Shown here: positions 18,601-21,600 of the stretch, piece after piece
Position numbering within the stretch: the first letter of the stretch is position 1
How the letters are laid out: every line of letters begins with the position of its first letter
Assembly: GCF_048403405.1 (NCBI RefSeq)
Contig: NZ_CP183129.1
DNA length: 64,000 bases
Source of the DNA: Escherichia coli
GTDB lineage: Bacteria; Pseudomonadota; Gammaproteobacteria; Enterobacterales; Enterobacteriaceae
Direction: 5' to 3' (one strand)
Position numbers: made by a program

Positions 18601-21600
18601 ATTCTGTGTGGTACAGGAGGCAAAGGTTGTACAACTGGCGACCTCACCACCGAAACCGTATACGGATGGTACATTGATTGCGGCCATGAAGAATGCGTCC
18701 TCCTTTATTACCGATCCGACATTAAAAAAAGTCCTGAAAGAGAATGCGGGGCTGGGGACAGAGGCAACCCGGGCAGGGATCATCACCACGCTGGAAAACA
18801 GGAAATTGATTGTCAGGCAGAAAAAAACACTCCGGGCGACAGACACCGGTTGTCAGCTGATTGATGCCCTGCCGGCAGCCTGTACAGATCCGGGAATGAC
18901 GGCGTTATGGGAACAATCACTCGAGCAGGTTGCACAGGGAAATCTGTCTCTGGATGTGTTTATGCAAAAGCAAATCAGCTGGTTGGCACATCTCATTAAA
19001 AAAGGCGGGGAAATGCCGCTGGCGCTGGATCTGCCACCGATGCCATCCTGCCCGTCGTGTCATGGAAAGATGGTCTTACGGGAGAGCAGTAAAGGCCGTT
19101 TCTGGAGTTGTCAGCGTTATCCGGATTGTAAAGGGAGTGTACCATTACCGGAAAAAATGCAGGGGGTTACCCGGGGGATGAATAAAAGAAAGAAGGCCGT
19201 GAAGAAGAGCATAACAGGACTCTTTACCTGAGTGATAATTACCGTTAGCATAGCTGACGCTAGGGAAAAGCCCCCCGTCATTGCGGCAAAGCCGTAGCGG
19301 AACAACTGCGGTGGCGACAATGAGAAAGTCTGTCTGTCAGCAGGACAGACTTTAAGGCGCATCAACCTCATGAAAACCGCGCCGGAGCTGGTTGAACTCC
19401 TGAGGTTCTTTTTAACATCACAGAGTGGGCGGCACTGTCAGGCGTTATTAACCGTAACGCCTTTTTTATTTGACAAAAAAGTTATTCATCCATGTGACTG
19501 AGTACCTGAATCACCCAGTCCGGGCAGGGCCGGGCGCTGTTTTTTTCCGGTGGGCATAACCAGGATTTTACCGCCCTGACAGAACAGGGCCTGCCTGTTG
19601 TCTGCTGAATGAGTTGAGCCAGGTCTTTTTGTGTCAGATGATGTTGCTGTAACCAGACTTTCAGTTTGTTTCTGTTATCCATTTTATTCTTCTGTGTTTA
19701 TCCTTTTCTCTCTGAACTGCTTTTTTACTTGACAAATAAAAAAAGCAGATTAATCCTTATTCTGCTTATACCGTTGCTTAATGCAACATTGCCAATGCTT
19801 CAGTTGTCTGAGAGAAGCGCCTACGGGTGACAACGATGCCAATGTTCCGGCAATCTGAGAGGAACGCCTACGGGTGATTGCCACTGCCAATCCTCGGGTC
19901 ATCTGAGACGGGAGCCTACGGGCGATGACAGAACTCCGTTCGTCCTTGAAATTGACGGAGGGTGATAACAGAATAGCGTTATCATCAGGATCATCTTATA
20001 CAACGCAAGTCGTCAGTTCGGGAGCGTTCCTGTTACTGACCCCGGTGGGAAACACGTTCCTGCCGAGACGATGTTTCTCATTTTTTTACCTTTTTTATCC
20101 GATGGAGAAACATCATGACCAGCAAAAATAATACAACATCTGAAAATAAATACTTTAATCTGCATGTGAACGGGATTGGGTATTTATCGAATATCCGTCA
20201 GGTTAACGGCCCTAAAGGGCAGTTTTTAACCGCAGTGATTAATGCACTCAGTGGACCGGCTGATAACCCTGTGTATGTTCGTTTTGATACGACCGTTGTC
20301 GGGGAGAATACGGTCTCACTGGTCAGACGGTGTATCAAAGCGGTGGATGAGGACAAAAAAGTCCTAACCGGGTTTACATTAAGTAACCTGGCTTCCGATA
20401 TTTTCACCCTGACAAAAGGTGAGCATGCCGGAGAACAGCGGGTCAGCCTGAAAGCCAGGCTGCTGAATATTGACTGGATTAAAATCGGTAAAGAAGTGGT
20501 ATATAAAGCCGAGAAACACCAGTCAACACCACCAGAGACTGAACAGCCGGTATCCAGAGAGTATGTGGCTGATTCTTTTTAGTCATTAATAAGGAGTTTG
20601 CTGTGACTAAAAATACACAACAACCGGTACATGATGCGTTATTCAAGCAGTTTTTAACGCATCCTGAGAATGCCCGGGATTTTTTCTCGGTGCATTTGCC
20701 GGCCAACATCCTGCCTTTGTGCGATTTAAGTACACTGCGCCTGGAGCCGGCCAGTTTTGTGGAGCGCCGTTTACGTCAGCTGCATTCGGATGTGCTGTAT
20801 TCCGTGCAGATGACGGAAGGGGAAGGGTATATCTACTGCCTGATCGAGCACCAGTCAAAACCGGATCGGTTAATGGGTTTTCGTCTGATGCATTATGCGA
20901 TGTCAGCGATAGCGCATCATCTGAAAAAATCGCCGGCGGATAAGACCCTGCCGTTGGTGGTGCCGTTTCTGTTTTATCAGGGCAGTGTTTGTCCTTATCC
21001 GTACAGCATGAACTGGCTGGACGGGTTCGCCGATCCGGCGCTGGCTCAGCAGCTGTATACCCGGTCGTTTCCGTTAGTGGATTTGAGTGTGCTCAGTGAT
21101 GAGGAAATCCTGACACACAAGGGTATTGCCCTGCTGGAGCTGGTTCAGAAACATATTCGGACCCGCGACGGTTTAATGGCGGTATTGCCGATAATCGCGC
21201 AGATAATTAACTCGCAACACAATACGGTTGACCAGGTGAGGAGTGTGATAGAATATATTGCCTATCAGGGGTATATTCTGGATGAATCCCGCTTTTTCAG
21301 CCAATTGATTGCACTGTCACCGGAGTATAAAACGATGCTGACAACGATTGCAGAACAACTTGAGCAAAAAGGTATCGAAAAAGGTATCGAAAAAGGTATC
21401 GAAAAAGGTATCGAAAAAGGTATCGAAAAAGGTATTGGCCTGGGTGTTGAAAAAGTCGCCCGCTCATTATTACAACAGGGGGTTGATCTGAACATTATTA
21501 TGCAATGTACCGGACTGACCCGGGAAAAGATTGAGTCATTAAAACATTAATCTTTTCTGTTTTTACTCTCAAATGCCGGCATGACTGCCGGCATTTTTTA

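What the first reader, a model, noticed from the sequence alone, without database searches (positions are those of the whole stretch)
19328..19470. Strong hairpins in the 250-bp region downstream of topB
AAAGTCTGTC-tgtcagcag-GACAGACTTT forms a 10-bp stem without a T-run, and a canonical terminator follows ~85 bp later. The intervening sequence could encode a small RNA or be a protein-binding palindrome.
Basis: seen in the sequence. Interest (0 to 1): 0.2.

Follow-up and report, generated by a model that had tools for sequence, protein, structure and literature searches.

The report
Conserved pseudoknotted RNA after ICE topB
The flagged hairpin and terminator are the first and last helices of one conserved, pseudoknotted RNA structure, about 140 bases long, that follows the topoisomerase gene of a family of mobile genomic islands in enteric bacteria and matches no catalogued RNA family.

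Summary
A perfect 10-bp hairpin lies at 19325-19353 with no T-run, and a canonical terminator lies at 19440-19467.

These are not separate features. The window is an ICEPm1/SPI-7-type integrative conjugative element. In 22 sequence-distinct relatives (Proteus, E. coli, Morganella, Xenorhabdus, Klebsiella, Serratia, Lonsdalea, Erwinia, Edwardsiella, Salmonella, metagenomes), the stretch between topB and the STAXI RNA holds the same architecture:
- a hairpin of variable sequence (H1) that abuts an invariant AAG;
- a three-helix pseudoknot (Pa, Pb, Pc) around a conserved UGAAA loop;
- a small hairpin (Pd);
- an intrinsic terminator (H3).

In the pseudoknot core, 95% of cells are paired and 10 of 16 pairs show compensatory double changes. 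None of 500 shuffles matched this, and slid controls reached only 34-49%.

Wobble pairs (8 G·U, 0 A·C), GNRA loops and the T-runs point to a plus-strand RNA. No Rfam 15 family matches it, and the small ORF inside it is not conserved.

Most likely it is a structured 3'-terminal domain of the topB transcript, or an sRNA derived from it. Its function is unknown. A conditional-terminator role is not excluded. Direct transcript evidence is missing.

The parts
17177..19231 (+). topB (DNA topoisomerase III, 684 aa). This is the upstream gene whose transcript most likely carries the element as its 3' end.
   Evidence: ORF list. RefSeq annotation of identical DNA in E. coli 005008. 100% identical protein in Proteus mirabilis ATCC 29906 and Providencia stuartii.
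19275..19323 (+). Tentative, lineage-variable upstream helices (H0). They are CCGT/GCGG at 19275-19286, CCGTAG/CTGCGG at 19292-19311, and an outer TCATTG/CAATGA at 19278-19283:19318-19323. The conserved ACCCCGT block starts here.
   Evidence: The MFE fold predicts the outer TCATTG/CAATGA stem and a 7-bp form of the CCGTAG/CTGCGG helix; the CCGT/GCGG pairing was read from the sequence by hand and competes with the outer stem. Compared by eye with L100 and L101, pairs change C-G to G-C and U·G to C-G. The block is absent from the MSI001/L098/L099 lineage, so it is not part of the minimal motif.
19325..19353 (+). H1, the flagged hairpin: 10 perfect pairs (11 with a U·G) and a 7-9 nt loop. It ends directly at the invariant AAG.
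   Evidence: In 16 of 16 lineages the MFE of the 40 nt upstream of AAG is a single hairpin ending 0-2 nt before it, or pairing the first A of the AAG in two lineages. Fourteen of 16 meet a strict criterion that 21-31% of controls meet (P about 4e-6). Read by hand from the sequences: compensatory changes occur between window and L100 (C-G to U-A, U-A to C-G) and between L102 and L103 (U-A to C-G). M19 has C to U, giving G·U.
19354..19355 (+). Invariant AA linker. Together with G19356 it forms the invariant AAG.
   Evidence: Invariant columns A1, A2, G3 in alignments A3 and A4.
19356..19383 (+). Pa, the pseudoknot helix: GGCGC (19356-19360) pairs with GCGCC (19379-19383). It encloses the 5' arm of Pb and the conserved loop UGAAAACC (19371-19378).
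   Evidence: 100% of cells are paired, and 3 of 5 pairs show double changes (GGCAC/GUGCC, GACGC/GCGUC, GGCGU/ACGCC). The arms were defined by fixed anchors, not by a search for pairing. RNAalifold predicts the helix independently.
19364..19407 (+). Pb: AACCTCA (19364-19370) pairs with TGAGGTT (19401-19407). It crosses Pa, which makes the pseudoknot.
   Evidence: 5 of 7 pairs show double changes (AACCUCA/UGAGGUU, AACUCCA/UGGAGUU, AACUCCG/CGGAGUU). The outer two pairs are lost in some lineages.
19384..19400 (+). Pc hairpin: GGAG (19384-19387) pairs with CTCC (19397-19400), with loop CUGGUUGAA. It lies contiguous with Pa 3' and Pb 3'.
   Evidence: 98.6% paired. Observed arm pairs are GGAG/CUCC, GGGG/CCCC, GGGA/UCCC and GGGAUA/UAUCCC. 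The loop is 4-12 nt, with GNRA tetraloops GAAA (L086) and GUGA (L089).
19408..19419 (+). U-rich single-stranded linker CUUUUUAACAUC. It is conserved as UUUACAUC(A/G)C only in the window-type group.
   Evidence: Alignment A5. The sequence differs in the Klebsiella/Salmonella/E. coli group.
19420..19438 (+). Pd hairpin: ACAG (19420-19423) pairs with CTGT (19435-19438). The 11-nt loop contains a GG(U/C)G motif.
   Evidence: RNAalifold pairs at columns 107-110:122-127 show AU/UA and AU/GC double changes. Equivalent hairpins with (U)GGUA loops occur in the second group.
19440..19467 (+). H3, the intrinsic terminator: AGGCGTTAT/GTAACGCCT (19440-19462) followed by a T-run. It is the 3' end of the element.
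   Evidence: Terminator scans call it in the window and in L102, L107, L098 and L106, where it is the only plus-strand terminator between topB and STAXI. A terminal hairpin plus U-run is present in all lineages with different sequences.
19772..19932 (+). STAXI RNA (RF01728). This is context, not part of the element. It always lies downstream of H3, behind its own TTGACA-N17 promoter-like site.
   Evidence: cmscan gives 121.3 bits against a gathering score of 40.5. The same order is seen in relatives.

Best explanation
The hairpin is helix H1 of a conserved, plus-strand structured RNA of about 140 nt (19325-19467), with optional upstream helices from about 19275. This RNA forms the 3' end of the topB transcription unit of ICEPm1/SPI-7-type integrative conjugative elements.

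**Architecture (shown by comparison).**
- H1 is followed by the invariant AAG.
- Next comes an H-type pseudoknot: Pa (5 bp) crosses Pb (5-7 bp), and hairpin Pc is stacked between their 3' strands. A conserved UGAAA-containing loop lies inside.
- A linker, hairpin Pd and the intrinsic terminator H3 complete the element.

**How it most likely works (inferred).**
- RNA polymerase reading out of topB transcribes the element and stops at H3.
- The resulting 3' domain may stay on the mRNA, or it may be released by endonucleolytic cleavage upstream of H1.
- It would be a stable RNA, with H1 protecting its 5' side and H3 plus the U-tail protecting its 3' side.
- Its invariant pseudoknot core would be the functional surface, most plausibly a binding site for a protein or other factor of the island's DNA-processing module. 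A single-stranded seed for base-pairing is less likely.

**My probabilities.**
- About 0.85 that it is a selected plus-strand RNA structure.
- About 0.6 that it is made as the topB 3' UTR rather than from its own promoter.
- About 0.35 that a processed, stable sRNA is the active form.
For: **Same position and architecture in every relative.**
- The element lies between topB and STAXI/DUF3577/ssb in 22 distinct versions from at least 10 genera, metagenomes and one plasmid-borne copy.
- A covariance model of the core hits every enterobacterial locus once, on the topB strand, at 35-71 bits.

**Covariation.**
- In the core, 95.1% of cells are paired and 10 of 16 pairs show changes on both sides.
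- No shuffle of 500 reached this, and slid controls gave 34-49%.
- RNAalifold, independent of my hand alignment, recovers Pa, Pc, Pd and H3. Its covariation term is -2.18 on the plus strand and -0.52 on the minus strand.

**H1.** A hairpin ends at the AAG in 16 of 16 lineages despite unrelated arm sequences.

**Strand and molecule.**
- There are 270 Watson-Crick pairs, 8 G·U pairs and 0 A·C pairs in Pa, the five inner pairs of Pb, and Pc.
- The minus-strand fold shows A·C breaks where the plus strand has G·U.
- GNRA and CUUG tetraloops occur.
- Every lineage ends with a hairpin plus U-run, and this is the only plus-strand terminator between topB and STAXI.

**Selection.** The non-coding core is 70-77% identical between lineages whose topB DNA is only 61-64% identical.

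**Not coding.** The ORF starting in the core runs 6-81 codons and is not conserved, and the Pc loop length varies by amounts that are not multiples of 3.

**No consistent own promoter.** Scans find only weak 9-of-12 sites, in two lineages. None appears upstream of the element in three others; their only promoter-like sites lie downstream of H3.

**Indirect transcript evidence.** Strand-specific RNA-seq in P. atrosepticum confirmed a 228-nt '3' UTR: topB' candidate next to STAXI (PMC4710047).
Against: - I had no RNA-seq, TSS or 3'-end data for this element. The Pectobacterium candidate could not be mapped to the motif, because that TopB was not retrievable.
- The 5' boundary is undefined. The region upstream of H1 differs between lineages.
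- The core alignment used for the pair counts was assembled by hand, with variable loops excised. The 3' arms of Pb and Pc were located by best complementarity, which inflates their pairing. Pa was not chosen that way.
- The sequences are related, so the counts are not independent events.
- No function is demonstrated. No binding partner or target is identified, and no single-stranded seed is conserved across all lineages.
- The H3 5' arm is more complementary to Pa 3' than typical terminators are. This fits a switching model at least as well as a constitutive terminator.
Confidence: 0.62

Rival explanations
1. Conditional terminator (riboswitch- or attenuator-like). The pseudoknot is a sensor domain and H3 is its expression platform. 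When Pa forms, H3 folds and transcription stops. When Pa is prevented from forming, the Pa 3' strand pairs with the 5' arm of H3. Polymerase then reads from topB into STAXI, DUF3577 and ssb.
For: - The order is a compact pseudoknot with invariant unpaired nucleotides, followed by a terminator. That order is typical of transcriptional riboswitches (established knowledge).
- In 15 of 15 lineages the Pa 3' region pairs better with its own H3 5' arm (-7.7 to -13.8 kcal/mol) than with most of 595 control terminator arms from the same loci (mean about -6). The fraction of controls as good is 1-27%, median 13%.
- The H3 5' arm begins with a GGCGY-like sequence resembling Pa 5' (AAGGCGC).
Against: - The predicted pairing register is not the same in all lineages. 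In L106, for example, it uses the CCGG palindrome. No clean covariation between Pa 3' and H3 5' is seen (and hand inspection).
- 55-90 nt, including the Pc and Pd hairpins, separate the two strands.
- STAXI has its own strong promoter-like site just after H3 (10 of 12 matches), so read-through is not needed.
- In the window a convergent ORF lies between H3 and STAXI.
- No ligand or factor is suggested by the gene context.
Confidence: 0.15
2. Ordinary 3' UTR furniture. H1, the middle hairpins and H3 are generic decay barriers and terminators for topB mRNA, with no specific function beyond 3'-end formation and stability.
For: - The position is immediately after a gene and before the first terminator.
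- Stable hairpins are common in the window's intergenic regions: 9 distinct perfect stems of at least 10 bp.
Against: - Generic barriers would not keep an invariant AAG, a UGAAA loop, a crossing helix pair with compensatory changes, or a fixed H1-to-Pa spacing across at least 10 genera.
- They would not stay more conserved than the adjacent coding DNA.
Confidence: 0.1
3. Single-stranded DNA element used during conjugative transfer or replication of the excised island. Candidates are an origin of transfer, a single-strand initiation site or an ssDNA promoter. The hairpins would form in transferred ssDNA.
For: - The neighbours are DNA-processing genes (topB, DUF3577 'ICE replication protein', ssb, dnaB-PI, parAB).
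- Weinberg et al. raised the ssDNA idea for the adjacent STAXI motif (PMC2864571).
- A variable hairpin abutting a conserved sequence resembles relaxase recognition sites (established knowledge of oriT anatomy).
Against: - G·U pairs are tolerated with no A·C pairs.
- GNRA and CUUG tetraloops stabilise RNA, not DNA.
- A U-run terminator is part of the conserved unit in every lineage.
- The motif is absent from the 76 Pseudomonas/Saezia relatives that share the topB module; whether they share the transfer machinery was not examined.
- A pseudoknot has no precedent in oriT or ssi sites (my knowledge).
Confidence: 0.05
4. Double-stranded DNA palindrome bound by a regulator, acting as an operator.
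For: A perfect 10-bp inverted repeat lies in an intergenic region near regulator genes (AcaB-family gene upstream; small HTH-like ORF downstream).
Against: - The arm sequences differ completely between lineages while pairing is kept.
- Bulges and G·T pairs appear, which would destroy dyad symmetry in duplex DNA.
- There is only one copy per element and no repeated half-sites.
Confidence: 0.03

Closest known systems
STAXI RNA motif (Rfam RF01728; Weinberg et al. 2010, PMC2864571)
   Same: It is an orphan structured-RNA candidate restricted to Enterobacterales islands. It sits next to topB, ssb and antirestriction genes and contains pseudoknots. It is present in the same intergenic region of every locus studied here.
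   Different: STAXI is a tandem repeat of a small pseudoknot unit. It lies 60-300 nt further downstream, behind its own promoter-like site. Its covariance model does not match 19232-19480 at E up to 10. The sequence and helix topology are unrelated.
EFASI RNA motif ('Enterobacteriaceae, Frequently Around STAXI and Integrases'; Rfam text quoted in PMC12370729)
   Same: It is a putative sRNA associated with STAXI on enterobacterial islands, and its function is unknown.
   Different: EFASI is described as lying several hundred bp downstream of STAXI, upstream of integrase genes. The element here lies upstream of STAXI. No Rfam family other than STAXI matches the window or ten relatives.
3'-UTR-derived sRNAs of enterobacteria such as CpxQ, SroC and DapZ (my knowledge)
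   Same: They lie in the 3' UTR, share the mRNA's intrinsic terminator and U-tail, and have a 5'-proximal hairpin. A topB 3' UTR transcript was detected in P. atrosepticum.
   Different: Those sRNAs act through a conserved single-stranded seed together with Hfq. Here the most conserved part is a folded pseudoknot, and no seed is conserved across all lineages.
H-type pseudoknot sensor RNAs such as the preQ1-II, SAM-II, fluoride and guanidine-III riboswitches (my knowledge)
   Same: They have a compact two-helix crossing topology with a purine-rich loop and a following intrinsic terminator.
   Different: Those elements sit in 5' leaders of the genes they control. None of their models matches. 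This element sits after a gene and before an independently promoted RNA. No ligand is implied by the context.
radC RNA motif (RF01754)
   Same: It occupies the equivalent DNA-processing neighbourhood in Pseudomonas and Saezia islands with related TopB.
   Different: It is a different structure and lineage. Those loci lack both STAXI and the element described here.

Membership tests
Intrinsic (Rho-independent) terminator, applied to H1 | G+C-rich stem followed directly by a U/T-run | tested here: not met
   H1 is followed by TTTAAGGCG. The terminator scan does not call it on either strand.
Intrinsic (Rho-independent) terminator, applied to H3 | G+C-rich stem followed directly by a U/T-run | tested here: met
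   9 pairs, 5-nt loop, then TTTTTATTTG. Equivalents are called in L102, L107, L098 and L106 and are seen in all lineages.
STAXI RNA (RF01728) | Covariance-model score at or above the 40.5-bit gathering threshold | tested here: not met
   The only STAXI hit is at 19772-19932. Nothing in 19232-19480 matches at E up to 10.
Any Rfam 15 family | Match to any of 4227 covariance models | tested here: not met
   The best overlap is STnc310 on the minus strand, at 20.9 bits against 40 (E = 0.68). There are no hits on the element in ten divergent relatives at E up to 1.
Repeated extragenic palindromes or small mobile hairpin elements (REP, ERIC, MITE) | Many dispersed copies per genome | tested here: not met
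   There are 27 places in 26 of 5426 E. coli genomes, always in the topB context. The CM finds one hit per locus.
Trans-acting Hfq-type sRNA | Terminator hairpin with U-tail at the 3' end | tested here: met
   H3 plus a U-run is present in all lineages.
Trans-acting Hfq-type sRNA | Conserved single-stranded seed region | tested here: not met
   The linker UUUACAUC(A/G)C is conserved only in the window-type group. The universally conserved bases lie inside the pseudoknot.
Trans-acting Hfq-type sRNA | A discrete transcript, with its own promoter or a processing site | not testable with these tools
   Only weak promoter-like sites (9 of 12) occur, in two lineages. An indirect RNA-seq report exists for Pectobacterium.
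Transcriptional riboswitch or attenuator | Mutually exclusive terminator and antiterminator pairings involving the sensor domain | tested here: inconclusive
   Complementarity between Pa 3' and the H3 5' arm is better than 73-99% of control terminators in 15 of 15 lineages. The register is inconsistent and there is no clean covariation.
Origin of transfer (oriT) | Inverted repeat next to a relaxase nic site; cis-acting for mobilisation | not testable with these tools
   Only anatomy is available. The RNA-type features (G·U pairs, GNRA loops, U-run terminator) argue against it.
Small protein gene | An ORF conserved in length and sequence | tested here: not met
   The ORF from the core (A/G)TG runs 6-81 codons with unrelated C-termini.

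The most novel reading that the evidence does not exclude
The pseudoknot may be the sensor of a new class of regulatory RNA, or even a new catalytic RNA, specific to conjugative islands. On this reading it binds a small molecule or an island-encoded or host factor that reports the transfer-competent state. By competing with terminator H3, it would decide whether transcription from the topB operon continues into the STAXI-DUF3577-ssb region. That would tie together two orphan RNA motifs whose roles have been unknown since 2010.
Probability: 0.1. Interest if true: 0.8.

Novelty: new member of a known kind. Interest (0 to 1): 0.5.

Why it matters
SPI-7/ICEPm1/PAPI-type islands carry virulence and resistance cargo in Salmonella, E. 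coli, Klebsiella, Proteus, Serratia and plant pathogens. Control of their DNA-processing module (topB, DUF3577, ssb) is largely unknown.

A second covariation-supported RNA structure next to the orphan STAXI motif gives a concrete, mutable handle. It is about 140 nt long and has defined helices for compensatory mutagenesis. It can be used to ask how this module is regulated and whether STAXI and its neighbour act together.

The motif is also a candidate new RNA family for Rfam. It has a clean model that already finds every tested enterobacterial copy and no Pseudomonas relative.

Tried and rejected
- **Rfam.** An E-value search of 18500-20500, a gathering search of the whole window and an E-value search of ten relatives returned only STAXI.
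- **Plasmids.** The window element has no match. The L102 version finds one Serratia plasmid with the same topB-element-DUF3577-ssb synteny. The L106 version finds none.
- **Viral contigs.** The core pattern gives 0 hits.
- **Metagenome pattern scan.** It returned 12 loci. Ten are the same ICE family, adding only two new variants (one of them seen in two loci), and two are chance matches inside unrelated coding DNA.
- **Pseudomonas and Saezia topB loci.** The covariance model finds no element there.
- **Coding hypothesis.** Rejected for the 43-aa ORF at 19370-19501.
- **Repeat or mobile-palindrome hypothesis.** Rejected.
- **Known ribozyme topologies.** I compared hammerhead and HDV-like topologies by hand. 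The order of strands does not fit, and there is no Rfam hit.
- **Mapping the Pectobacterium RNA-seq candidate (601635-601862) onto the motif.** This failed. Two protein searches did not return P. atrosepticum TopB.
- **ICEclc oriT literature (PMC6561031).** It gave no positional information relevant to topB.
- **DUF3577.** It has no PDB or PADLOC match.
- **Literature searches.** Searches for topB RNA motifs and for STY4533-STY4535 found no prior description.
- **Antiterminator test.** It gave a suggestive but inconclusive signal.
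Full report
**1. The observation**

The window sequence contains AAAGTCTGTC (19325-19334), tgtcagcag, then GACAGACTTT (19344-19353). 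This is a perfect 10-bp inverted repeat followed by TTTAAGGCG, so there is no T-run.

A canonical terminator follows 87 nt later, and the terminator scan calls it. Its stem runs from 19440 to 19462, with 9 pairs and a 5-nt loop, followed by TTTTTATTTG. topB is the 684-codon ORF at 17177-19231.

Perfect stems of at least 10 bp with loops of 3-12 nt are counted 12 times in the window, collapsing to 9 distinct hairpins. Dinucleotide shuffles give 0.8 +/- 0.95. The hairpin segment folds at -14.9 kcal/mol against -7.3 +/- 2.4 for shuffles.

**2. Where the window comes from**

The 701 bases around the finding are 100% identical to chromosomal DNA of 12 E. coli strains. They are 78-90% identical to 13 more, and the region is never found on a plasmid in that collection.

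RefSeq annotation of the identical region shows an SPI-7-type island. It carries parA, dnaB-PI, parB, DUF2857, an STY4528-family gene, a PFL_4669/AcaB-family gene, topB, an STY4534-family (DUF3577) gene and an Rpn nuclease. It also carries siderophore and fimbrial cargo.

The TopB protein is 100% identical in Proteus mirabilis ATCC 29906 and Providencia stuartii. This fits ICEPm1; that name comes from my own knowledge of the literature and was not tested here.

Rfam finds a strong STAXI RNA at 19772-19932 (121 bits). It finds nothing else in the whole window.

**3. Relatives**

I collected the region downstream of topB from several sources:
- E. coli variants;
- Xenorhabdus;
- a metagenome pattern scan;
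- contigs encoding TopB proteins 57-80% identical to the window's, from Morganella, Klebsiella, Lonsdalea, Serratia, Erwinia, E. coli, Edwardsiella, Salmonella and unnamed Logan assemblies;
- one Serratia plasmid.

This gives 22 sequence-distinct versions. All lie between topB and STAXI/DUF3577/ssb.

**4. Anatomy**

Every version shows the same order:
- a hairpin (H1) of unrelated sequence, whose 3' arm ends 0-2 nt before an invariant AAG;
- Pa 5' (GGCGC);
- 3-4 nt;
- Pb 5' (AACCUCA);
- the loop UGAAAACC;
- Pa 3' (GCGCC);
- immediately the hairpin Pc (GGAG...CUCC);
- immediately Pb 3' (UGAGGUU);
- a linker;
- a small hairpin Pd with a GGU-containing loop;
- a terminator hairpin H3 with a U-run.

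Pa (19356-60:19379-83) and Pb (19364-70:19401-07) cross each other, so the core is a pseudoknot.

**5. Tests of the structure**

*Core.* I used a 49-column core alignment. Variable loops were trimmed, Pa was defined by fixed anchors, and the Pb and Pc 3' arms were placed by best complementarity. The results are:
- 95.1% of 288 cells form standard pairs;
- 10 of 16 pairs have changes on both sides;
- 37 cells carry double changes, against 9.2 +/- 2.9 in shuffles (0 of 500 as high);
- sliding the 3' partners by 1-3 columns drops pairing to 34-49%;
- Pa alone is 100% paired, with three covarying pairs.

*Independent check.* RNAalifold on an unedited MAFFT alignment of ten full-length versions recovers Pa, Pc, Pd and H3.

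*H1.* The MFE of the 40 nt upstream of AAG is a single hairpin abutting it in 16 of 16 lineages. Fourteen of 16 meet a strict positional criterion that 21% of random genomic 40-mers and 31% of shuffles meet (binomial P about 4e-6; the lineages are not fully independent). Read by hand from the sequences, compensatory changes in H1 occur between close relatives: C-G to U-A and U-A to C-G between window and L100, and U-A to C-G between L102 and L103.

**6. Strand and molecule**

- In Pa, the five inner pairs of Pb, and Pc there are 270 Watson-Crick pairs, 8 G·U pairs, 0 A·C pairs and 2 other mismatches.
- The reverse-complement alignment shows A·C breaks where the plus strand has G·U. Its covariation term is -0.52, against -2.18 for the plus strand.
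- Pc closes with GAAA or GUGA in two lineages. H3 closes with GAAA, GCAA or CUUG in others.
- H3 plus its U-run is the only plus-strand terminator-like site between topB and STAXI in the four other lineages scanned.

These features indicate an RNA read from the topB strand.

**7. Selection, coding and distribution**

- The core is 70-77% identical between lineages whose topB DNA is 61-64% identical.
- The ORF that starts in the core (43 codons in the window) runs 6-81 codons elsewhere and has unrelated ends.
- A covariance model of the core (R1) finds each enterobacterial locus once at 35-71 bits. It finds nothing in 76 Pseudomonas/Saezia topB loci. At least two of those loci carry the radC motif instead of STAXI.
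- No Rfam 15 family matches the element in the window or in ten relatives.
- Literature searches found no description of it.

**8. How it probably works**

*Shown.* There is a conserved plus-strand RNA fold that ends in an intrinsic terminator. It lies after topB and before the independently promoted STAXI. TTGACA-N17 sites with 10 of 12 matches follow H3 in two scanned relatives.

*Inferred.* No consistent promoter precedes the element, so it is most simply the 3' end of the topB transcript. H1 and H3 bracket the pseudoknot. The universally conserved bases lie in the pseudoknot rather than in a single-stranded seed. This suggests a folded recognition surface for a protein or another factor, on the mRNA or on a processed, stable 3' fragment.

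*Experimental hint.* Strand-specific RNA-seq in Pectobacterium atrosepticum, which I recall carries an island of this family (HAI2), confirmed a 228-nt '3' UTR: topB' candidate directly followed by a STAXI-containing one (PMC4710047). I could not retrieve that genome to check the overlap.

**9. Rivals**

*Conditional terminator.* In 15 of 15 lineages the Pa 3' strand is more complementary to its own H3 5' arm than to 73-99% of 595 control terminator arms. This model is therefore alive. However, the register varies, there is no clean covariation, and downstream genes have their own promoter.

*ssDNA functions (oriT, ssi).* The gene context suggests these, as does the ssDNA idea once raised for STAXI. 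They fit poorly with the G·U pairs, the RNA tetraloops, the terminator and the pseudoknot.

*Duplex operator.* This is contradicted by the non-conserved arms.

*Generic 3' UTR hairpins.* These do not explain the invariant nucleotides or the crossing helices.

**10. Verdict**

The hairpin and the terminator are the outer helices of a previously uncatalogued, covariation-supported, pseudoknotted RNA motif of SPI-7/ICEPm1-type islands.

It is a new member of a known kind: orphan structured RNAs of mobile islands, like STAXI, EFASI and radC. Its function is unknown, and direct transcript evidence is the key missing piece.

Noticed in passing
window 19772-19932 (+): A strong STAXI RNA (RF01728, 121 bits). 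In the relatives whose held sequence reaches that far, STAXI follows the topB-3' element; a TTGACA-N17 promoter-like site precedes it in the two relatives where a scan called one.
   Followed up: partly
window 19461-19736: A 66-aa minus-strand ORF (19482-19682; weak HTH_33 hit) lies between two copies of CTTTTTTAYTTGACAAA (19461-19477 and 19720-19736). RefSeq annotates it only in the window-type islands. In L101 the H3 T-run abuts the STAXI promoter directly. The ORF therefore looks like an inserted cassette with a duplicated junction, and its transcript would run antisense into the element.
   Followed up: partly
window 19717-19748: A 10-bp inverted repeat, CTGCTTTTTT/AAAAAAGCAG, has TTGACA in its 12-nt loop, just upstream of STAXI. 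The left arm is truncated by a 13-bp deletion in strain M19.
   Followed up: no
L003-L005 vs window 19232-19470: E. coli MSI001, 774 and GON1437 islands have topB 92% identical to the window. The element is only 75% identical, and the H0/H1 segment is replaced by a shorter one of the Morganella type. This points to a recombination breakpoint at the 3' end of topB.
   Followed up: partly
window 15840-16583 (+): The gene two ORFs upstream of topB (annotated PFL_4669 family) is a clear AcaB-family transcriptional regulator (Pfam PF08900, E = 2.5e-57). It is conserved at this position in all relatives.
   Followed up: no
L010, L011 (Saezia, Pseudomonas): The two distant TopB relatives that I scanned with Rfam carry the radC RNA motif (RF01754) downstream of topB (1.7-3.3 kb past its end) and have no STAXI. 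None of the 76 Pseudomonas/Saezia loci matches the new motif's model.
   Followed up: partly
window 19772-20582: Untested idea. STAXI (tandem pseudoknot repeats) is followed by a small DUF3577 gene. This layout resembles type III toxin-antitoxin loci (ToxIN). DUF3577 has no PDB or PADLOC match.
   Followed up: partly
window 629, 7210, 21571, 23732, 36068, 37832, 50931: Seven other perfect inverted repeats of 10-11 bp with short loops lie in the window, far above the shuffle expectation. They are probably terminators, but I did not examine them.
   Followed up: no
L102 4110-4150; L103, L104 equivalents: In the Klebsiella, Lonsdalea and Serratia versions, a weak hairpin (GGAA/UUCC) followed by U7 lies between topB and H1. 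It might be an earlier terminator. If so, the element would need its own promoter in those lineages.
   Followed up: no
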